A stretch of DNA of 64,000 bases, taken from a virus. Lineage: Duplodnaviria > Caudoviricetes. Both the position numbers and the translations under genes were made by a program. Positions 32,680 through 41,668 of this stretch are shown in pieces (positions within the stretch are counted from its first letter, which is position 1; each line of letters begins with the position of its first letter). The notes under the pieces are model-generated. The model did not search any database. It was not told the DNA's origin and saw only the letters and a list, made by a program, of their open reading frames with translations. The stretch is taken from IMG/VR virus record IMGVR_UViG_3300028805_000037, positions 224,001 to 288,000 of that record; one strand, 5' to 3'.

Positions 32680-33609
32680 ATGACTAACAATGATATATTA
32701 AGACAATTAGCTGAAGCTTTACAGTCTACAGCTATAAAAAAGACTGCTTCTAAAAATGAAGGTCCGTCAGTAGAACAAATGAATGCAGATTTTGCAAAAT
32801 ATTTGAATGCTGGTGATTTTGGTAGAAAAAAAGCTGCTGTAGCTTTTGACAAACCTTTGAAAATGAAAGTTGCTTATGAAGCAATTCTTCCTAAAATTTT
32901 CAAAGAAGATAATATAGCAAATTCAGTTGCTTGGGCAGATGTTGAATTTCCTGAAATTGGAGCTGTAGTTGTTCCTTTCAGAGGAGCTCCTGCAAGAATC
33001 GAAAGAGGTACTGCAAGAGTATTTTATAAAACTTATACAGTATCTGCTGCTTGGGATGTATTTTATGATGACGTTTTCACAGCAGCTTATTCAGTATTAG
33101 ATGAAGCTAAAAATAAAGTTGCTATTGGTCTTGCAATACAGATTGATACAGATTTGTTTAAAGCTTTGAATGCAGCAGCATCTACTGGAGTATATCCGGA
33201 TTTAGCAGTTTCAACAATGTCACTTTCCGTTATTAACTCTATTAGAGGCGAAATGATGGAATTTGATTTGATTGCAACAGCAATGTTATTGAATCCGAAA
33301 AGATATTATGAAATGTTAGATGTTACACCTAACCAAGTTGATCAGGTTACTTTGAACACAGTTATAGAAACTGGTTATATTGCTCAGCTCTATGGAGTAA
33401 AATTCTTTGTTTCTAAACTTTGTCCGAAAAATGCTGGTTTTGTAATCACAGCACCTGAATATATTGGTAAATGTGTATTTAGACAATCACAACAGATTAA
33501 AATTACTGATATACCTTGGGAATTAAAATATGTTGTAGTAGGATATCAAAATTATGGATTAACGCTTCATAATCCTAGATCAGTAAGAAAAGTTAACTTT
33601 ATTGGTTAA
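32680..33609 (+). CDS. Major capsid protein (HK97-fold likely)
   Basis: 309 aa; N-terminal IKKTA|S site; EAK..VA..L....D..LF.AL, LLNP.RY, G.I.QLYGVKFFVS; strong terminator after. Confidence 0.75.
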   Translation: MTNNDILRQLAEALQSTAIKKTASKNEGPSVEQMNADFAKYLNAGDFGRKKAAVAFDKPLKMKVAYEAILPKIFKEDNIANSVAWADVEFPEIGAVVVPFRGAPARIERGTARVFYKTYTVSAAWDVFYDDVFTAAYSVLDEAKNKVAIGLAIQIDTDLFKALNAAASTGVYPDLAVSTMSLSVINSIRGEMMEFDLIATAMLLNPKRYYEMLDVTPNQVDQVTLNTVIETGYIAQLYGVKFFVSKLCPKNAGFVITAPEYIGKCVFRQSQQIKITDIPWELKYVVVGYQNYGLTLHNPRSVRKVNFIG

Positions 33610-33637
33610 TTAAATAAAGTTTAATTTTTAAATATAG

Positions 33638-33672
33638 ACGAAAGTAAAAATTTATTTTACTTTCGTTTTTTT
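33638..33672 (+). terminator. Intrinsic terminator after the capsid gene
   Basis: ACGAAAGTAAAA-ATTTA-TTTTACTTTCGT plus T tract. Confidence 0.8.
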
Positions 33673-33698
33673 ATTTTATATAATTAATTTAAATTTAA

Positions 33699-33828
33699 AA
33701 GGTATTGGAAACACCTTGACTAGTTTAAATAAGAATATTATATTTTTTATATAATATATAATTATAGTTTATAGAATCTAGTCAAAGTTTCCAGCTTTAA
33801 ATTAAAATTCTATAAACTATTTTTATTT
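33699..33828 (+). ncRNA. Nuclease-associated structured element, copy 1
   Basis: A TGGAAAC 33706-12 with A' 33787-93; B TTGACTAG 33716-23 with B' 33778-85; C 33764-77 with C' 33807-20 (14 bp). Confidence 0.65.
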
Positions 33829-33841
33829 ATGGAGATATAAT

Positions 33842-35710
33842 ATGAATTTAGATAAATTAAAAAAAATTATTAATGATGAAAATTTTAAAAAAATTAATAT
33901 TAAATGTAAATTTCCTAAAATGAATAAAAATAATATTAATATATTTAAAATAATAATGCAGAAATATGATAATATAAATCAAGATGATATTATAAATATA
34001 TTTATAAATAAAAATATAAATAATTGTATATGTAAATGTGGTAATTTTAAACATGCAAAACAAAATTTTTGTTCAACAAAATGTTATTATTTTAAACAAT
34101 ATTTAAAACAAAGGCAAGAACAGGGATGTTTAGAAAAATATGGTGTAAAAAATGTATTTCAAAATAAAGATATAATTAATAAAATAACTAATAAAAGAAT
34201 TAATAAAACAAAAGAAGAAAAGCAAAAAATAGCAGATAAAAAACATCAAACTAAATTAAATAATATAGATGAAAATGGTTTAAATTCATATCAAAGAGGT
34301 GTAAAACATAGCAAAGAAACTTGTTTAATTAAATATAATATTGATAGTTATTCAAAAACTCAAGAATATAAAAATAAAATGCATGAAACATATAATAATA
34401 AAACAAATGAAGAAATGAATAATATTTTAGAAAAAAGAAAACAAACATGCCAAGAAAAATATAATGTAGACAATGTATGGCAATCTGAAAATGTTAAAGA
34501 TAAAATTAAAATTACTAATAAAACAAGATATAATGTTGAATTTTATACACAAACAGATGAATATAAAATTAAATCAAAAAATACTTGGAATAGCAAAACA
34601 CAAGATGAATTAGAAGAAATTAAACAAAAGGCAAAATTAACAAGAATACAAAATGGTAATCAATATCCTGATGGAATAACAAAAGAATTTCTAGATAATT
34701 GGGATAAAGATAGAAAACCTACACCACAAGATTTATTAGATTATTTTCATCAATATTATAATAAAAATACACATTTAACAAATATTTATCCACTTATTAT
34801 TAATAACAAAGAAGATTTTGAATTACAACAATCACGACTTGAATTAAAAGTTAAAGATTTTTTAGATAAATATAATTTAAAATATGAACAACATAATAGA
34901 AGAGTAATAAAGCCTCTAGAATTAGATTTTTACTTACCAGAATATAATTTAGCTTTAGAAGTAAATGATATTTTAACACATAATTCTACATTACATTTAT
35001 TTGGAGGACAACCTAAAGAATTAAATTATCATTTTAATAAAACAATGTTATGTAAAAAAGTAGGAGTAAGATTAATACATATATTTGAACCAATTTTAAA
35101 TAATGAAAAACAATGGGAAATTTTGCAAGATATTATTTTGCATGCTTGTGGAAAAAGTAAAAAGATATACGCACGTAATACTGAATTAATTGTGAAACCA
35201 GCTATTGAATTAAAACAATTTTTTAGAGATAATAATATACAAGGTTATCGTTCAGCAAATACAGCTTTTGTATTAATTGATAAAAATTCAAAAGAACCAT
35301 TAATGTGTTATACTATAGGGCAGGCATATTTTGGTAAAGGTAAATATGATGCTGAAATAGTTAGAGGAGCTTGTAAGTTAGGTTATTCAGTAATTGGTGG
35401 TGCAAGCAAATTATGGAAATTTATTATTAATTATTATAAAGATAAAGATTTATATGGAAATCCTGGCAGTATTAATTCTATAGTTTATTATGTTAATCTT
35501 AATTATTATGATGGTAAAAGTATGAATTTTTTAAATAATATTAAATTTATTAAAAATCAAAGAGGATTTTGGAATTATTGGGTAAAAGATAAAATTTTAA
35601 AAAATAGAGAACCAGGAAGACACAAAGAAATAAAAGATTTAATTAAAAAAGAACAAGTTTTAGTTATTGGAAATTCTGGAACTCAAGTAAATGTTTGGTC
35701 AAGAGAATAA
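33842..35710 (+). CDS. Free-standing homing-endonuclease-like protein (Zn finger, EKYGV repeats, Vsr-like PD-(D/E)XK, Hef-like C-terminal domain)
   Basis: CKCGN..FCSTKC; ELDFYLPEYNLALEVND..H; IYAR..NIQG..GGASKL. Confidence 0.75.
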   Translation: MNLDKLKKIINDENFKKINIKCKFPKMNKNNINIFKIIMQKYDNINQDDIINIFINKNINNCICKCGNFKHAKQNFCSTKCYYFKQYLKQRQEQGCLEKYGVKNVFQNKDIINKITNKRINKTKEEKQKIADKKHQTKLNNIDENGLNSYQRGVKHSKETCLIKYNIDSYSKTQEYKNKMHETYNNKTNEEMNNILEKRKQTCQEKYNVDNVWQSENVKDKIKITNKTRYNVEFYTQTDEYKIKSKNTWNSKTQDELEEIKQKAKLTRIQNGNQYPDGITKEFLDNWDKDRKPTPQDLLDYFHQYYNKNTHLTNIYPLIINNKEDFELQQSRLELKVKDFLDKYNLKYEQHNRRVIKPLELDFYLPEYNLALEVNDILTHNSTLHLFGGQPKELNYHFNKTMLCKKVGVRLIHIFEPILNNEKQWEILQDIILHACGKSKKIYARNTELIVKPAIELKQFFRDNNIQGYRSANTAFVLIDKNSKEPLMCYTIGQAYFGKGKYDAEIVRGACKLGYSVIGGASKLWKFIINYYKDKDLYGNPGSINSIVYYVNLNYYDGKSMNFLNNIKFIKNQRGFWNYWVKDKILKNREPGRHKEIKDLIKKEQVLVIGNSGTQVNVWSRE

Positions 35711-35803
35711 AACAGGTTTATTTAAAAAGAAATATGGAGTACAATTGTATAACGAATATTCACTATAAAATTTAAATTTAAAATAAGTTTATAAGGTGAA
35801 ATT

Positions 35804-36586
35804 ATGAGTATAAATATAACTTGGACACTTCCATATTCTATATTACAAAATCCTAATTATACAAAGATAGATATTTATCGTGGTAATGATGAGAATAAAA
35901 TTGAGTCATATCATATTATTGCTACTCTTGATAGATGGGTAGATAATGACTATGAAAAAGAAGTAACATCATATACTGATCCTTCTGGTAATAATCAAAA
36001 ATTTTATTTTGTTAAATATACTAATAATAATGGTACATTAGTATCAAATATGTTATTAACAGCTTTTGATTTAAGTCCTAAGCAACAACGCTGGGTAAAT
36101 AGTTTAAGAGATATGTTAGATCCTATTATAACAAGTAAAATTCTTGATGATGGCACAATGCAACCATTAAGTGATACTGATTTATTTTTAGGTATTAATA
36201 TGGCACTTGATTATTTTAATAATTATAGTCCAGTAACTGATTTTACTTATGCTACATTTCCTAAAGGTGGAGGATATGAATTTATTATATTATTATTTGC
36301 ACAATACTTCACTATTATGAATAAATTTATAGGTTTATCAATCCGTGATTTCAGTTATTCTGATAATGGTTTATCTTTAAACCAGCAATTTACTCCAGCA
36401 TTAACTACTGCTATGGATAAAATATTAGGTATATTAAATCCATTAATGCAGAAAGTTAAAATGGATTTCAGTATTGATTCTAGTGCAACTTTAGGTTCAA
36501 CAATGTATGCGGTGGGGCTAAATGGAAGGATGGGTCAGTACCCGGCTGAAGTTTTTTCAATATTTCGTTCACTTACTACAAATTAA
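35804..36586 (+). CDS. Probable head completion/neck (head-tail adaptor) protein
   Basis: Ig/FN3-like N-terminus; ALDYFN..P.T.F...FP and FSYSDNGLSL patterns; late-promoter motif upstream. Confidence 0.5.
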   Translation: MSINITWTLPYSILQNPNYTKIDIYRGNDENKIESYHIIATLDRWVDNDYEKEVTSYTDPSGNNQKFYFVKYTNNNGTLVSNMLLTAFDLSPKQQRWVNSLRDMLDPIITSKILDDGTMQPLSDTDLFLGINMALDYFNNYSPVTDFTYATFPKGGGYEFIILLFAQYFTIMNKFIGLSIRDFSYSDNGLSLNQQFTPALTTAMDKILGILNPLMQKVKMDFSIDSSATLGSTMYAVGLNGRMGQYPAEVFSIFRSLTTN

Positions 36587-36608
36587 AATTTAAATTTAAA
36601 ATATGTTA

Positions 36609-36740
36609 TAGGTAATACGAGCACCTAGAACCAGTTAAATATAAGATATTATATTTTTTATATAATATATAAATATAACCTATAGAATCTGGTTCAAAGC
36701 TCGTAACTTAAATCAAAAATTCTATAGGTTATATTATTAT
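36609..36740 (+). ncRNA. Nuclease-associated structured element, copy 2
   Basis: A TACGAGC 36616-22 with A' 36699-705; B TAGAACCAG 36626-34 with B' 36689-97 (one mismatch); C 36672-88 with C' 36719-35 (17 bp). Confidence 0.65.
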
Positions 36741-36755
36741 AAAGGAGATATAATA

Positions 36756-38432
36756 GTGAATAAAGAAGAAATACAAAAAATTTTTAATGAATATAAAGAT
36801 AGGATTATAATTCATAAAAATATAACATATTCTGGCAATTTAAAACAAAATATTTTATTGTTCAAAGAAATCAATACAAAATATCCTAATATTTTTAAAA
36901 ACATAACAGAAATTATTTATTTAATGAATCATAGTATTGATGAAAAATTTTGTTATTGTGGAAATAAAAATAGTTTTAGAGGGTTAAAATATGGTTATGC
37001 TAAATATTGTAGTAATAAATGTGCTGCAAATAGTAAAGAATTTAAGCAACATTATGAAGATACATTATATAAACGATATGGTGTAAGAAAATTAAGTCAT
37101 ACTAGCTTTATGCAAGAAAAATTTAAAGATCCGGAATGGGGTAAAAAATGTAGGCAAAATCAATTAAAAACATTTCAAAAAAGAACTGGTTATTTACATC
37201 CAAGTTTATGCCCAGAAAGTAATGAAAAAAGAAAGAAAACTATGCAAGAAAGATATAATGTAGATCATCATTGGATGAGTAAAGATCCTAAATTAAATGG
37301 AAGTAAAACAAGATTAGAAAAATATGGTTATTATAATTCTTTTAATATGCCAGAAGTTAAACAAAAAGCTATAATTGCAAGAAAAAATCCACAATGGATT
37401 GAAAAAGTTTTAATAACTCGTAATAAAAATAAAAAAATAATATTTGAAAAAAAGCATAAACATTTTGAAGATTATAATGAAAAATTTTTTAGAGATAATT
37501 TTATAAAAGATGGTAAATTTGATATAAAAGCTTGTTGTGATTATTTTAATATAATTGAATCTTGGTGTAATTGCAAAAAGCGTGAATTTAATATAATTGA
37601 ACCAAATAAAAATGAGCAAAATTTTAAATTACAAAAAGAAGTTTTTGATTATATAAAATCTATATATAATGGTGAAATTTTATTTAATACACATAAATTT
37701 ATTTATCCTTTAGAAATAGATATTTATATTCCAGAAAAGAAAATTGGTATAGAATTTAATGGTGTTTATTGGCATTCAATACGTTATAAAGATAAAGATT
37801 ATCATTATAAAAAGTCATTATTAGCTAAAGAAAAAGATATAGAATTAATTCATATTTGGGAAGATCAATGGTTATATCAAAAAGATTTAATTAAATCAAT
37901 AATTAAAGTAAGATTAGGATTAAATACAAATAAAATTTTTGCAAGAAAATGTATTATAAAAGAAATTACTACACAACAATATAAAGATTTTACAAATAAA
38001 AATCATATACAAGGCTATAGGAAAGCTTCTATTAAATTAGGTTTATTTTATAATGATGAATTAGTACAAATAGCATCATTTAGCAAATCAAATAAATATG
38101 ATTATGAATGGATAAGAGGATGTCCAGCATCATTAAATGTTGTTGTTGGTGGGACATCAAAGTTATTTAATTATTTTATTAAAAATTTTAAACCAAAATC
38201 TGTCTTATGTTATGCGGATTTTAATCTTTTTAATGGGCAAGGCTATAGACAATGTGGCTTTCAATTTAACGGTTATACTGGGCCGAATAAATTTTATTTT
38301 GATTCAGAATTAAAAAGAATCGAAAGAAACCCACACAGATATAAAGAATTTAAACAATTAGTAGAAAATAATCAACTATTATTATGTTATGGTTGTGGTA
38401 GTTTGCGTTATATTTGGTTCAATAAAATTTAA
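36756..38432 (+). CDS. Free-standing Hef-like homing-endonuclease-like protein
   Basis: CYCGN..YCSNKC; EIDIYIPEKKIGIEFNGVYWHS; IFARKC..NHIQG..GGTSKL..YAD. Confidence 0.78.
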   Translation: MNKEEIQKIFNEYKDRIIIHKNITYSGNLKQNILLFKEINTKYPNIFKNITEIIYLMNHSIDEKFCYCGNKNSFRGLKYGYAKYCSNKCAANSKEFKQHYEDTLYKRYGVRKLSHTSFMQEKFKDPEWGKKCRQNQLKTFQKRTGYLHPSLCPESNEKRKKTMQERYNVDHHWMSKDPKLNGSKTRLEKYGYYNSFNMPEVKQKAIIARKNPQWIEKVLITRNKNKKIIFEKKHKHFEDYNEKFFRDNFIKDGKFDIKACCDYFNIIESWCNCKKREFNIIEPNKNEQNFKLQKEVFDYIKSIYNGEILFNTHKFIYPLEIDIYIPEKKIGIEFNGVYWHSIRYKDKDYHYKKSLLAKEKDIELIHIWEDQWLYQKDLIKSIIKVRLGLNTNKIFARKCIIKEITTQQYKDFTNKNHIQGYRKASIKLGLFYNDELVQIASFSKSNKYDYEWIRGCPASLNVVVGGTSKLFNYFIKNFKPKSVLCYADFNLFNGQGYRQCGFQFNGYTGPNKFYFDSELKRIERNPHRYKEFKQLVENNQLLLCYGCGSLRYIWFNKI

Positions 38433-38439
38433 ATTTAAA

Positions 38440-38570
38440 AAGGTATTGAGAACACCTTGAACCAGTTTAAATAAAGATATTATATTAGTACAGTATATAG
38501 ATGTGGCCTATAAAATCTGGTTCAAAGTTCTCAAAGCTTAATCAAAAATTTTATAGGCTACTTTTATTTT
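38440..38570 (+). ncRNA. Nuclease-associated structured element, copy 3
   Basis: A TTGAGAAC 38446-53 with A' 38527-34; B TTGAACCAG 38457-65 with B' 38517-25; C 38503-16 with C' 38548-61 (one G-U). Confidence 0.65.
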
Positions 38571-38583
38571 GTGAGTATAATAT

Positions 38584-39852
38584 ATGAATTATATTAATAT
38601 AATAAAACAATTAAAAAAAGAGTCACTAATAATATCTGGCAAAACGCCATATCAATTTCAAATAAATAAAGATATATTTCAAAAATATAAAGATTATTTT
38701 ATTAATATTTCTGAAATGTTATATTGTTTTAAAAATGATAATATTTTAAATGAAATATTTTGTAAATGTGGAAATAAAAAGAATTTCATTAATATGACGA
38801 TTGGTTATACTAAATTTTGTTCAAAAGAATGTAATTATAAATATAGAAATTTTGATTCACCATTCAAAAGAAAAGATGTACAAGAAAAATCTAGAAAAAC
38901 ATTTCAAATAAAATATAATAGTAATACATTTGCTGGCACAAAATTATTTAAAGAAAAATCAAAATTAACAAAATTAGAAAGATATAATGATGAAAATTAT
39001 AATAATAGCAAACAAGCAAATAAAACTAAATATGAACGTTATGAAAATCACGCCTATAATAAAAATAAATTTGAACAATCAATGTTAGAAATTTATGGTG
39101 TTACACATCATTGGAAAGATAAAAATGTAAGAAAACAAATTATAAACACTATGTTAAATAATATAGATGAAAATGGATTAAATAGCATTCAAAGAAGAAA
39201 ATTAAAAATAGAACAAACAAATTTAGAAAAATATGGAGTTAAATGTAGTTTTTCAAGCAAAGATCCAGAAATAAATGGTAGAGCATCTATAAAAAGAAAA
39301 TATGGTGTAGAATCTTTTTGGAGTTCACAACAATTTAAAGATCTTTATAAAGATGAAGAATATAAAAATAAAGTACAAGAAAAAGCTATTCAAACTAGAT
39401 TACATGATATAGATGAAAATGGTTTAAATAGTTATCAAAGAAGTGCAATAAAACGTTTTGAAACAATGAAAAAAAATAATTCTTTTAATACATCTCAGCC
39501 AGAAGAAGAATGTTATCAATTACTTTTAAAAAAGTTTAGTAAAGATGATATAGAAAGGCAATATAAATCTCAATCATATCCTTTTCATTGCGATTTTTAT
39601 ATTAAATCTCTAGATTTATATATAGAATACCATGGAACTTGGACGCATCAATTTAAACCATTTAAACATTCAGTAGAAGATTTGCAAAAATTAAAAGAAT
39701 TACAAAATAAAAATACAAAATATTATAATACTTCAATTGAAATTTGGACAAAAATTGATCCATTAAAATTACAAACATTTAAAAAGAATAAACTTAATTT
39801 TAAAATATTTTATAATATAGAACAATTTAAAAATTGGTTCAATAAAATTTAA
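38584..39852 (+). CDS. Free-standing homing-endonuclease-like protein (Zn finger, EKYGV repeats, PD-(D/E)XK; no Hef C-terminal domain)
   Basis: CKCGN..FCSKEC; SQPEE, YPFHCDFYIKSLDLYIEYHGTWTH. Confidence 0.75.
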   Translation: MNYINIIKQLKKESLIISGKTPYQFQINKDIFQKYKDYFINISEMLYCFKNDNILNEIFCKCGNKKNFINMTIGYTKFCSKECNYKYRNFDSPFKRKDVQEKSRKTFQIKYNSNTFAGTKLFKEKSKLTKLERYNDENYNNSKQANKTKYERYENHAYNKNKFEQSMLEIYGVTHHWKDKNVRKQIINTMLNNIDENGLNSIQRRKLKIEQTNLEKYGVKCSFSSKDPEINGRASIKRKYGVESFWSSQQFKDLYKDEEYKNKVQEKAIQTRLHDIDENGLNSYQRSAIKRFETMKKNNSFNTSQPEEECYQLLLKKFSKDDIERQYKSQSYPFHCDFYIKSLDLYIEYHGTWTHQFKPFKHSVEDLQKLKELQNKNTKYYNTSIEIWTKIDPLKLQTFKKNKLNFKIFYNIEQFKNWFNKI

Positions 39853-39877
39853 ATTTAAAATATAAGGAAATAATATT

Positions 39878-41668
39878 ATGTCTATTAAAAAAACAGCTTC
39901 AGAAATATTAGATAATTTTACTGGTGGAATTGTTAATATATCTAGAGGAAGAAAAAAGAAAGCGGCAATGAATAAAAAAGCTGGCGATATGAGTTATGAT
40001 GCTGCTTATGATGCAAGTAGAACACCACTTTCATACCAAGAACCCTTATATGACGCTTATCTTGTGATGTTTCCTGAATATAATTTAGTTGAAGCTAATA
40101 AAAGATATCGTCATTATGCAAAGTTTCATCCCGTACTTGGTAATTGTGTAGATATACATTCAACTTTTCCTTTTACTGATTTTGAAATAATGGTAGATAA
40201 TGAAGAAATAAAAGAATATTATACATATTTAGCTAATGATAAATATGATTTACCAAATATGAATACATTATCTGCAAGAGATGAAGTTCTTCTTGGTGAG
40301 GCAGTATTTCTTGGTAATTGGGATGAAGCTAATTTTGAATGGGAAGAATGGTTACAATATCCTCCAGAATTTATTGATATAACAACAATCCCAGGTATTT
40401 CATCTAAAGTTTTTACAATTAAACCAGATCCAGAAATACAAAATACAATCAGAGATAAAGATAAAAATAGTGATGCTAATAAGATTTTGACAGAAATACT
40501 TAAAAAGATGAATCCTAAATATTATGATGCTGCTGTTGAAGATAAACCATATACTGTACCAGAAGATAGAGTAATATATCTTGCTAATAAAATTGATGGT
40601 TATTCTAAAAGAGGATATCCTTTAACAAAAAGAGCATTACAAGATTTAATGCATGAAACAGATTTAAGAACTCTTCAACATACATTTGTACAAAGACACA
40701 TGTTCCCAATTAAATTATGGAAGTTAGGTAGTGAAAGTATGGGTTGGGTACCAAGTCAAAAACATTATCAAAATTTTAAAAAATTATTAGTGCAAGCGAG
40801 TGCAGACCCTGATTTTAACTTAATCTACCATATAGGTGTTCAATTTGAAGCAGTTGGAACTAAAGATAAAATTGAAGATTTACAACCTAAATTTGAATGG
40901 TGTTCAAAAAGAATAATGAATGCATTTTTTGTTAATGATGCTCTTCTTAATGGTGAAGCACCAAGTTATGCTGGACAAGTTGCTAATACAAAATTATTAA
41001 TGTATAGATTTGCTACAGTAAGAAATAATAGAGAAAAAGCATATAGACAAAAGATATTTTTACCTATAGCTAAAAAGCAAGGTTTAGTTAAACAAAATAA
41101 TAATGAAAAGAAAACATATACATTAATTAAAAGCAAAACATTTAGAGATACTCAATATTATCTACCTGAATTTATGTGGAGACAACAAAATACATTAAAT
41201 AATTATCAATTACAACAAATGTTAGTAGGTTTATATAATGATGGAGCTATTCCATTTGGTATAATAAGTGATATATTTGGTTTAAGTGATAAAATACTTG
41301 AAAATTATCGTAAAAAAGAACAAGGTACTTATGCAAATAGATTAACGAGAGAAATTGTAGATGAAATAGTTAAAGCTGATCCTAGTATGTCATTAAAATT
41401 TGCTTTAGGTGAAGATCCAATCGAATTATTAAAAGAAAAAAAGAAAAATGATGAAGTATTAAATAGTACAGAAGAAGGACAAAAAGATGAAAATGGAAAT
41501 ATAGATGATAATTTAGATATGAGTGGCGGAGATATGGGATTTGATTCAAGATCACCTATAGAATTAGATAATAATGAAGAAGAAACAAGTAATAATGAAG
41601 AATCTGGAAGTGAGCCTCCAATGAGTGAAACTGGAGAACCTCCATCAAATGAATCTTCAGAAATATAG
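39878..41668 (+). CDS. Portal protein
   Basis: RHYAKFHPVLGNCVDIHSTFP, LLGEAV, P.KLWKLG, acidic tail; N-terminal KKTA|S. Confidence 0.7.
   Translation: MSIKKTASEILDNFTGGIVNISRGRKKKAAMNKKAGDMSYDAAYDASRTPLSYQEPLYDAYLVMFPEYNLVEANKRYRHYAKFHPVLGNCVDIHSTFPFTDFEIMVDNEEIKEYYTYLANDKYDLPNMNTLSARDEVLLGEAVFLGNWDEANFEWEEWLQYPPEFIDITTIPGISSKVFTIKPDPEIQNTIRDKDKNSDANKILTEILKKMNPKYYDAAVEDKPYTVPEDRVIYLANKIDGYSKRGYPLTKRALQDLMHETDLRTLQHTFVQRHMFPIKLWKLGSESMGWVPSQKHYQNFKKLLVQASADPDFNLIYHIGVQFEAVGTKDKIEDLQPKFEWCSKRIMNAFFVNDALLNGEAPSYAGQVANTKLLMYRFATVRNNREKAYRQKIFLPIAKKQGLVKQNNNEKKTYTLIKSKTFRDTQYYLPEFMWRQQNTLNNYQLQQMLVGLYNDGAIPFGIISDIFGLSDKILENYRKKEQGTYANRLTREIVDEIVKADPSMSLKFALGEDPIELLKEKKKNDEVLNSTEEGQKDENGNIDDNLDMSGGDMGFDSRSPIELDNNEEETSNNEESGSEPPMSETGEPPSNESSEI

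What the first reader, a model, noticed from the sequence alone, without database searches (positions are those of the whole stretch)
33699..38570. Covarying structured element before three divergent nucleases: a hairpin whose loop matches DNA upstream of its own promoter
Seen: each nuclease gene is preceded by the same layout: late motif, GGT-A-ACC-B, ~40-nt AT spacer with a -10-like box, then C-B'-a-A'-13-nt linker-C', T-rich tract and RBS. A differs among copies (TGGAAAC, TACGAGC, TTGAGAAC), as do B (TTGACTAG, TAGAACCAG, TTGAACCAG) and C. Yet A:A', B:B' and C:C' stay complementary, with ACC always opposite a single A and a G-U pair in copy 3. The -10 boxes (33750, 36661, TACAGT 38489) would start RNA near the first base of C, giving a ~60-nt hairpin with a bipartite 16-18-nt loop antisense to the top strand upstream. 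RNA from the late motif would instead have H-type pseudoknot topology (L2=0). Inference, three options: (i) a guide RNA directing these PD-(D/E)XK/Hef-like proteins, for autoregulation or targeting; (ii) a two-promoter attenuator switch limiting a toxic nuclease; (iii) structured ends of a mobile cassette. I cannot match it to a known RNA family.
Basis: partly seen in the sequence, partly recalled or inferred. Interest (0 to 1): 0.9.

Follow-up and report, generated by a model that had tools for sequence, protein, structure and literature searches.

The report
Pseudoknotted RNA leader of phage homing nucleases
Three selfish DNA-cutting-enzyme genes in a 300-kb gut phage each start with the same ~125-base folded RNA leader, a real and apparently undescribed pseudoknot that probably limits how much nuclease is made and shows no sign of being a guide RNA.

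Summary
The genome holds five copies, three of them in the window. Relatives from animal-gut metagenomes supply more, giving 16 distinct sequences.

All copies share one architecture on the gene's own strand:
- a 5-bp hairpin P0, (N)AGGY/RCCU(N'), at the 5' end;
- its loop A kisses A', and the 6-7 nt B that follows pairs with B';
- an invariant AAA joins B' and A';
- B'-AAA-A' lies in the loop of a 12-17-bp helix C:C';
- a spacer hairpin lies between B and C;
- a U-rich tract and the start codon follow C'.

Of 29 scored pairs, 24 show compensatory changes, and 97.8% of cells pair against 82% in shuffles. G-U outnumbers A-C 14 to 3, so the fold belongs to the sense strand. Rfam has no match.

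The leader is a portable module. It heads Hef-like (DUF7487) and HNH-NUMOD3 homing endonucleases, is swapped between nuclease genes, and is missing from near-identical alleles. Its loop has no other target. This argues against a guide RNA.

Best reading: a cis-acting leader that controls nuclease expression, as T4 homing-endonuclease leaders do. Here the internal -10 box gives a transcript that lacks the pseudoknot.

The scan noted analogous, non-homologous nuclease leaders in other phages, but not this family.

The parts
33686..33699 (+). Copy 1: phage late-type promoter motif AATTTAAATTTAAA directly before the leader
   Evidence: The motif occurs 24 times in the window against 4.1 expected. 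It lies mostly on the + strand, 13-46 nt before the starts of structural genes.
33699..33723 (+). Copy 1: 5' module. P0 hairpin (33699-33703 with 33713-33717), loop segment A (33705-33712), B core (33718-33723)
33735..33757 (+). Copy 1: spacer hairpin (arms 33735-33743 and 33749-33757). Its 3' arm holds the -10 box TATAAT at 33750-33755, which matches the genome-wide TTTTATATAATATAT promoter motif.
33764..33820 (+). Copy 1: helix C:C' (33764-33777 with 33807-33820). It encloses B' core (33778-33783), AAA (33784-33786), A' (33787-33794) and an A-rich linker (33795-33806).
33821..33844 (+). Copy 1: U-rich tract, SD GGAG (33831-33834), start ATG (33842)
33842..35710 (+). Homing endonuclease 1, 622 aa (DUF7487 repeats; phrog_3339)
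36587..36600 (+). Copy 2: late-type motif, abutting the stop codon of the 260-aa gene
36609..36634 (+). Copy 2: P0 (36609-36613 with 36623-36627), A (36615-36622), B core (36628-36634)
36646..36668 (+). Copy 2: spacer hairpin with -10 box TATAAT (36661-36666)
36672..36735 (+). Copy 2: helix C:C' (36672-36688 with 36719-36735). It encloses B' core (36689-36695), AAA (36696-36698), A' (36699-36706) and the linker.
36756..38432 (+). Homing endonuclease 2, 558 aa (GTG start; SD at 36744-36747). Weak match to the PD-(D/E)xK intron endonuclease chain 3r3p.
38426..38439 (+). Copy 3: late-type motif overlapping the end of nuclease gene 2
38440..38465 (+). Copy 3: P0 (38440-38444 with 38454-38458), A (38446-38453), B core (38459-38465)
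38481..38497 (+). Copy 3: weak spacer hairpin with a degenerate -10-like box TACAGT (38489-38494)
38503..38561 (+). Copy 3: helix C:C' (38503-38516 with 38548-38561, with a G-U pair). It encloses B' core (38517-38523), AAA (38524-38526), A' (38527-38534) and the linker.
38584..39852 (+). Homing endonuclease 3, 422 aa. It ends in WFNKI plus the late motif that serves the portal gene, as nuclease 2 does.

Best explanation
Each element is the 5' leader of a homing-endonuclease (HEG) cassette, transcribed on the gene's strand.

Shown by comparison:
- The RNA starts with a 5-bp hairpin (P0).
- The P0 loop (A) and its 3' flank (B) pair with B'-AAA-A'.
- B'-AAA-A' lies in the large loop of a second helix (C:C').
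- A spacer hairpin sits between B and C.
- Together this makes a compact pseudoknot that ends 7-25 nt before the start codon.
- The leader is a portable module shared by unrelated nuclease genes.

Inferred:
- The pseudoknot locks C:C' next to the U-rich initiation region and so damps translation of the nuclease on transcripts that begin upstream, whether from the late motif or by read-through.
- In this phage the -10 box in the 3' arm of the spacer hairpin starts a shorter RNA at the first base of C. That RNA lacks P0, A and B, cannot form the pseudoknot, and is translated more freely.
- Promoter choice therefore sets nuclease output. This is the same principle as in T4 HEG leaders, with a different structure.
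- The hypervariable A and B helices keep each cassette's fold private when several cassettes share one genome.
For: Existence and fold:
- Five copies in the genome and 16 distinct sequences with relatives.
- 24 of 29 pairs are compensatory, with 97.8% pairing against 82.1% in shuffles and 26-51% in slid controls.
- RNAalifold independently recovers P0 and C:C'.
- A spacer hairpin is present in all 15 parsed copies, built from unrelated sequences, some with GNRA loops.

Sense-strand RNA:
- 14 G-U against 3 A-C, the latter only at helix ends.

Cis function:
- Relatives with no internal promoter (L066, L075a, L099, L100) have a TATAAT-type box 7-8 nt (13 nt in L100) before AGGY. They keep covarying A and B, so the full-length leader is the conserved form.

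Position:
- C' ends 7-11 nt before an SD-less AUG in those copies and about 10 nt before the SD here.

Internal promoter:
- It matches the genome-wide TTTTATATAATATAT motif.
- It always ends 5-10 nt before C.

Energetics:
- Summed pseudoknot parts give -32 to -47 kcal/mol, against the best nested fold of -28 to -37.

Module:
- It heads DUF7487 and HNH-NUMOD3 nucleases.
- It is swapped between nuclease genes and absent from near-identical alleles.
- It lies inside the cassette boundaries.

Precedent:
- T4 I-TevI, I-TevII, I-TevIII, segB and Aeh1 mobE use leader structure plus an embedded promoter to time translation (PMC2988022).
Against: - No transcript ends or levels were seen. The two metatranscriptome runs are held only as contigs and say nothing on this.
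- The sign of the effect, damping or enhancing, is inferred.
- Copies without an internal promoter must express the nuclease from the pseudoknotted RNA, so the fold cannot be a full block.
- Copy 5 keeps a perfect fold although no nuclease gene follows it. This fits a function independent of nuclease translation, or a recent loss.
- A fold of five helices with invariant junction bases is more elaborate than simple occlusion needs.
- The pseudoknot energy sum ignores the pseudoknot loop penalty.
Confidence: 0.45

Rival explanations
1. mRNA-fate element. The fold protects or processes the 5' end of the AT-rich nuclease mRNA and so raises expression rather than damping it. It could work as a 5'-terminal stabiliser against 5'-end-dependent RNases, or as an RNase III-type processing site formed by the roughly 30 bp of stacked helices.
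For: In both predicted transcripts the first bases lie in a helix. The -10 boxes sit 7-8 nt before P0 in most relatives, and 5-10 nt before C for the internal promoter. Copy 5 stays intact without a downstream ORF.
Against: A plain hairpin would be enough for 5' protection. That does not explain the conserved kissing and pseudoknot geometry or the invariant AAA and linker. No processing data exist.
Confidence: 0.15
2. Transcription attenuator. C:C' plus the U-rich tract terminates most transcripts before the nuclease ORF, leaving a stable structured RNA of about 125 nt (or about 60 nt). The pseudoknot tunes termination.
For: A U-rich tract follows C' in nearly all copies. In copies without an SD, the AUG lies at the end of that tract.
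Against: C:C' has a 25-35-nt loop and an A-U-rich base. The phage's evident terminators, such as 33636-33668, have 5-nt loops and G-C at the base, and the terminator scan does not flag C:C'. U-richness is expected in 22% G+C DNA.
Confidence: 0.1
3. Cassette-specific trans-acting RNA. The short hairpin RNA from the internal promoter pairs through its B'-AAA-A' loop with P0, A and B of the long transcript of the same cassette. A and B act as orthogonal address codes, as kissing loops do in plasmid copy control.
For: B core and the middle of A are the most variable parts of the leader (38% and 42% identity) while the junctions are invariant. Every copy in this genome has a unique A+B combination.
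Against: Family members without an internal promoter keep the same covarying A and B, so the pairing is needed in cis. The internal box of copy 3 is degenerate.
Confidence: 0.1
4. Operator for a protein or small ligand. The compact fold is bound by a phage or host factor, or by the nuclease itself, to repress translation. The T4 gene 32 mRNA pseudoknot works this way for gp32.
For: Invariant unpaired bases occur at junctions (AAA, GG/CC of P0, the A-rich linker) next to a U-rich unstructured initiation region. The gene 32 precedent is described in PMC535899.
Against: The leader serves unrelated nuclease families and is swapped among them, so binding by its own nuclease is unlikely. No candidate factor was identified.
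Confidence: 0.1
5. Guide RNA that directs the nuclease.
For: A loop of 17-19 nt is exposed on a stable hairpin next to a nuclease gene.
Against: - The nucleases are protein-guided homing-endonuclease types.
- The only complement of the loop is A/B inside the same cassette.
- Leader and nuclease are not co-inherited.
Confidence: 0.02
6. DNA-level element: a cruciform, an invertible promoter flanked by inverted repeats, or recombination ends of the cassette.
For: A-B and B'-A' are inverted repeats flanking a promoter-like box.
Against: The G-U against A-C asymmetry (14:3) fits RNA of one strand. The interleaved repeats form a pseudoknot rather than nested arms. All copies have one orientation, and the 55-nt interval is very short for inversion.
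Confidence: 0.03

Closest known systems
T4-family homing-endonuclease leaders (I-TevI, I-TevII, I-TevIII, segB, Aeh1 mobE): RNA structure plus embedded late or middle promoter (PMC2988022)
   Same: A structured 5' leader directly before a phage HEG. A promoter is embedded in the structure, so its transcripts lack the 5' part. The presumed purpose is to restrict nuclease synthesis.
   Different: The T4 structures are single hairpins that sequester the SD. Here there are five helices with a kissing loop and pseudoknot, and the SD or AUG lies outside the fold. The outer promoter is the late-type one and the inner is the TATAAT type. The family is shared by unrelated HEGs as a swappable module.
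T4 gene 32 mRNA translational operator (5' pseudoknot followed by an unstructured A/U-rich region with the RBS; PMC535899)
   Same: A pseudoknot at the 5' end of the leader, followed by an A/U-rich single-stranded initiation region.
   Different: The gene 32 pseudoknot is about 28 nt and nucleates binding of the encoded ssDNA-binding protein. Here the fold is about 125 nt, and no binding protein is known.
Kissing-loop antisense control RNAs of plasmids (ColE1 RNA I/II, R1 CopA/CopT; own knowledge)
   Same: A hairpin loop pairs with a second loop, and the pairing extends into the flank. The loop sequences vary while complementarity is kept.
   Different: Those pairs are made in trans from opposite strands. 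Here both partners lie on one sense transcript.
HEG leader cassettes noted earlier in this scan in other phages (e1-3458546 kissing-hairpin leader; e1-3294369 and others, antisense cassettes)
   Same: A shared, covarying structured cassette in front of HEGs of several families.
   Different: There is no sequence likeness. Several of those folds were assigned to the opposite strand, whereas this one folds on the sense strand.
GIR1 lariat-capping ribozyme before the I-DirI ORF in twin-ribozyme introns (own knowledge)
   Same: A double-pseudoknotted RNA immediately upstream of a homing endonuclease ORF that shapes the 5' end of the HEG mRNA.
   Different: GIR1 is eukaryotic, about 190 nt, derived from a group I intron and catalytic. 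There is no Rfam match here and no evidence of catalysis.

Membership tests
T4-type HEG leader (RBS-sequestering hairpin with embedded promoter) | A stable structure pairs the SD or start codon in transcripts from upstream promoters | tested here: not met
   Nested MFE folds of copies 1-3 pair a spacer arm with GGAG...AUG. That arm also forms the local spacer hairpin. The complementarity is absent in L075b, L101 and L102, and the SD-less copies have nothing to sequester.
T4-type HEG leader (RBS-sequestering hairpin with embedded promoter) | A promoter inside the structure gives transcripts that lack its 5' part | tested here: inconclusive
   A -10 box sits 5-10 nt before C in 11 of 15 parsed copies, and in the copies of this phage and its closest relatives it matches the phage's own promoter motif. 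No transcript start was observed.
T4-type HEG leader (RBS-sequestering hairpin with embedded promoter) | The endonuclease binds an operator that resembles its homing site | not testable with these tools
   The homing sites are unknown.
H-type RNA pseudoknot | Two helices with crossing topology, both supported by covariation | tested here: met
   A/B with B'/A' cross C:C'. 6 of 8, 4 of 4 and 12 of 12 pairs have compensatory changes. There is no linker between C and B'.
RNA-guided nuclease systems (TnpB/IscB omega RNA, HEARO) | The nuclease belongs to an RNA-guided family | tested here: not met
   The proteins carry DUF7487 repeats, match phrog_3339 'homing endonuclease' and show a weak PD-(D/E)xK hit to 3r3p. 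One relative is HNH-NUMOD3.
RNA-guided nuclease systems (TnpB/IscB omega RNA, HEARO) | The guide segment matches a target outside the element | tested here: not met
   No match with up to 3 mismatches in 728 kb other than the leaders themselves. A and B lie inside the cassette.
Cis-antisense RNA cassette on HEGs (IS10 RNA-OUT type; earlier scan notes) | The conserved fold lies on the strand opposite the gene | tested here: not met
   On the sense strand, 14 G-U against 3 A-C, the latter at helix ends.
Any Rfam 15 family | Match at the gathering score or at a low E-value | tested here: not met
   No hit at gathering in the window. Only chance hits at E up to 5 in 33000-40000 and in the loci of copies 4 and 5.
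Intrinsic terminator / attenuator | A G+C-rich stem with a short loop, followed by a U run | tested here: inconclusive
   The U-rich tract is present. The stem base is A-U-rich with a 25-35-nt loop, and the scan does not flag it.

The most novel reading that the evidence does not exclude
The leader is an RNA address system. The short hairpin RNA made from the internal promoter acts in trans, through its B'-AAA-A' loop, on the 5' hairpin and flank of the late transcript of the same cassette only. The hypervariable A and B helices are specificity codes kept orthogonal among the nuclease cassettes of one phage genome. This would be a plasmid-incompatibility-like kissing-loop logic used by homing endonuclease genes.
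Probability: 0.1. Interest if true: 0.8.

Novelty: new variant of a known kind. Interest (0 to 1): 0.55.

Why it matters
Homing endonuclease genes must be expressed without harming the phage that carries them. The only worked-out controls are the simple hairpins of T4-type phages.

This is a much more elaborate RNA that is well supported by covariation. It travels as a swappable module in front of unrelated nuclease genes in a clade of animal-gut phages.

If its effect on expression is confirmed, it adds a new class of cis-regulatory RNA, a candidate new Rfam family. Together with the other nuclease leaders seen in this scan, it suggests that structured leaders are a general part of free-standing nuclease cassettes.

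The private A and B helices would also be a natural set of orthogonal RNA-RNA interaction pairs.

Tried and rejected
- One search used a pattern with one N too many, so its two hits were chance matches.
- The 17-base core pattern in viral contigs gave 42 hits. A profile of the leader found none of the family among those loci.
- The corrected strict pattern gave no hits in viral contigs and two in metagenome contigs, both real.
- A looser family pattern in viral and genome contigs gave only known clade members and chance hits in coding DNA.
- Megablast of the region against deposited phages found nothing.
- The portal protein found no close relatives in viral contigs.
- Ten more distant IMG/VR records with related nucleases or a related 260-aa protein hold no copy.
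- The sigma-70 scan is uninformative in this AT-rich DNA: 79 sites found against 65 expected.
- Two sheep-gut metatranscriptome runs hold identical contigs on the capsid, 260-aa and portal genes but none on the leaders or nucleases. They are contigs only, so this is not evidence about expression.
- tblastn found no nuclease remnant downstream of copy 5.
- Reading AGGU as a split SD brought near the AUG was rejected on geometry, because the two lie at opposite ends of the stacked helices.
- Pairing of AGGU with the linker ACUU, suggested by RNAduplex, was rejected. The GGC/GCC double change and the covarying fifth pair support P0 instead.


Full report
**Setting.** The window is part of a single 300,445-bp virus record (98% complete by CheckV; window = bases 224001-288000). 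It has about 22% G+C in the window and nearly all genes on the + strand. Runs that hold it come from sheep and cattle gut.

The finding lies in the head-gene block:
- major capsid protein (32680-33609);
- nuclease 1 (33842-35710);
- a conserved 260-aa protein (35804-36586);
- nuclease 2 (36756-38432);
- nuclease 3 (38584-39852);
- portal (39878-41668).

The three nucleases carry DUF7487 repeats and match PHROG 3339 'homing endonuclease' (E down to 8e-98). Nuclease 2 has a weak match to the PD-(D/E)xK intron endonuclease chain 3r3p (E = 0.049). They are only 23-31% identical to each other. Their upstream regions are 81% identical.

**Observation.**
- A profile and a covariance model find exactly five copies in the genome: the three in the window, copy 4 at 167.4 kb and copy 5 at 199.0 kb on the minus strand.
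- Copy 4 is followed by a 41-codon nuclease stub and then an IS607-like serine recombinase plus TnpB. The 3' end of the old cassette is still visible.
- Copy 5 is followed by a second, partial leader and about 900 nt of non-coding DNA, with no nuclease remnant.

**Relatives.** Homologues of the 260-aa and capsid proteins led to contigs of related phages. A DNA pattern led to two metagenome contigs. IMG/VR records of relatives could be searched whole.
- The leader occurs in relatives whose 260-aa protein is as little as about 59% identical. One of these is a complete 136-kb phage with terminal repeats.
- It does not occur in ten more distant records, nor anywhere else in the viral or bacterial-genome collections.
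- In all there are 17 full copies, 16 of them distinct.

**Structure.** I parsed 15 unique copies by anchors and scored pairs in fixed registers.
- Helix A:A' has 8 bp, with three pair types at each of the two middle positions.
- The B core has 6-7 bp, differs in almost every copy and is always complementary.
- Helix C:C' has 11-17 bp.
- On the model-based alignment A7, 97.8% of cells pair against 82.1% in column shuffles (0 of 500 as high). 24 of 29 pairs have changes on both sides. Sliding the partners by 1-3 columns drops pairing to 26-51%. That alignment was fitted to A/B, but C:C' and P0 were not part of the model.
- RNAalifold predicts P0 and C:C' on its own.
- That run also showed that the base before AGGY pairs with the base after RCCU (UA 8, AU 6, CG 1). 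With the GGU/ACC to GGC/GCC change in L075b, this makes P0 a real 5-bp hairpin whose 9-11-nt loop is segment A.
- A spacer hairpin of 7-10 bp (6 bp and weak in copy 3) lies just before C in all 15 copies. It is built from unrelated sequences, some with GAAA or GUAA loops.
- The topology is a kissing loop (A:A') plus flank pairing (B:B') into the loop of C:C'. This is a pseudoknot with no linker between C and B' and an A-rich 8-16-nt linker after A'.
- Summed energies of the parts (-32 to -47 kcal/mol, without a pseudoknot penalty) are below the best nested fold (-28 to -37) in every copy.

**Strand.** In the helices there are 14 G-U pairs and 3 A-C mismatches on the + strand, the latter at helix ends. 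The fold is therefore selected in RNA of the sense strand. This differs from several nuclease leader cassettes noted earlier in this scan, which were assigned to the antisense strand. Rfam 15 has no match. Full-text searches found no description of such a leader.

**Promoters.** The motif AATTTAAATTTAAA occurs 24 times in the window against 4 expected, 13-46 nt before the starts of structural genes. It sits directly before P0 in copies 1-3. A second motif, TTTTATATAATATAT, marks many other genes of the genome. It forms the 3' arm of the spacer hairpin in copies 1, 2, 4 and 5.

Two subtypes appear across the family.
- **Type I.** These are the copies of this phage and its closest relatives, plus L075b, L101 and L102. 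A -10 box in the spacer hairpin ends 5-10 nt before C. In L101 and L102, as in copies 1-3 here, a phage-specific motif lies before P0. In L101's phage the upstream motif recurs 10 times against 3 for the control.
- **Type II.** These are L066b, L075a, L099 and L100. The spacer is a plain hairpin. A TATAAT-type box lies 7-8 nt before AGGY (13 nt in L100). The AUG follows C' by 7-11 nt without an SD.

The full pseudoknotted leader is therefore the conserved form.

**The leader is a module, not a partner of one nuclease.**
- It heads DUF7487 nucleases and, in L102, an HNH-NUMOD3 nuclease.
- In L104 the homologue of nuclease 1 carries a leader with the A and B of copy 4.
- In L103 (capsid 99% identical) the nuclease gene of L062 follows the capsid terminator without the roughly 195 nt that hold the late motif, the leader and the SD.
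- In a gut metagenome contig, bases 33685-33837 are replaced by 27 nt in front of an otherwise about 98% identical nuclease 1.
- Comparison of L066 and L067 places the promoter, leader and nuclease together inside the variable cassette.
- The complement of each loop occurs nowhere else in 728 kb of this genome and its relatives, including alleles without the nuclease.
- Only three of the eight DUF7487 genes of this genome have this leader. Two others have a different structured leader.

**Mechanism.** Three things are shown: a conserved sense-strand fold, its position at the very 5' end of the leader and directly before the initiation region, and its modularity.

The rest is inferred. The pseudoknot would stabilise C:C' next to the U-rich start region and damp translation on long transcripts. 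In type I copies the internal promoter would give an RNA that cannot form the pseudoknot. This is the logic of T4 homing-endonuclease leaders, realised by a different structure. The T4-style pairing of a spacer arm with the SD appears in the nested folds of copies 1-3. It is not conserved in relatives and competes with the local spacer hairpin, so I do not rely on it.

Rivals are:
- a 5'-end stabiliser or processing site;
- an attenuator;
- a trans-acting, cassette-specific RNA;
- a protein or ligand operator, as in T4 gene 32.

The guide-RNA and DNA-level readings are disfavoured by the data above. The intact orphan copy 5 and the complexity of the fold are the main observations that the preferred mechanism does not explain.

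**Verdict.** This is a real, well-supported and apparently undescribed structured RNA family. I class it as a new structural variant of a known kind of control, the regulatory leaders of phage homing endonuclease genes. Its mechanism still needs experiment.

Noticed in passing
L001:3566-5800 (genome about 167.5-169.8 kb): After leader copy 4 the nuclease ORF stops after 41 codons. An IS607-like serine recombinase (204 aa) plus TnpB (455 aa) follows, with its own late motif. The old cassette's 3' end (..NWYNN plus the late motif) survives downstream, so the IS element replaced the body of a homing endonuclease gene.
   Followed up: partly
L002:5060-5950, minus strand (genome about 198.06-198.95 kb): Leader copy 5 has no ORF after it. 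It is followed by a second promoter with a degenerate C-like segment, about 900 nt of non-coding DNA that looks richer in G+C by eye, and 13 tandem AGAATT repeats. There is no Rfam match and no nuclease remnant.
   Followed up: partly
Genome about 81-83.7 kb, minus strand (outside the window): Two other DUF7487 nuclease genes carry a different, mutually covarying leader of about 50 nt (UAYGGC...GCCRUA). This phage therefore has at least two structured leader families on its nuclease genes.
   Followed up: partly
L062:10655-13933, compared with window 39878-41668: In a relative whose 260-aa protein is 97% identical, nuclease 3 is absent. The portal gene instead carries an in-frame insert of about 490 aa after residue ~307. 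The insert begins with Cys and has a faint LAGLIDADG hit, so it is probably an intein. Different selfish elements thus occupy the portal locus in near-identical phages.
   Followed up: partly
window 38418-38439 and 39838-39859: Nucleases 2 and 3 both end in WFNKI-stop fused to the late motif AATTTAAATTTAAA. The cassettes therefore carry, at their 3' end, the promoter for the next phage gene. These repeated ends may serve as recombination homology.
   Followed up: no
L103:1010-1040: In the allele without a leader, a TATAAT box lies 6 nt before the nuclease ATG and there is no SD. This suggests a leaderless mRNA.
   Followed up: no
L066:6181-7977, compared with L067:7681-7977: A second nuclease site lies between the capsid and 261-aa genes. 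L067 has an internal deletion of about 1.5 kb that leaves a 98-aa remnant. That nuclease has no pseudoknot leader.
   Followed up: partly
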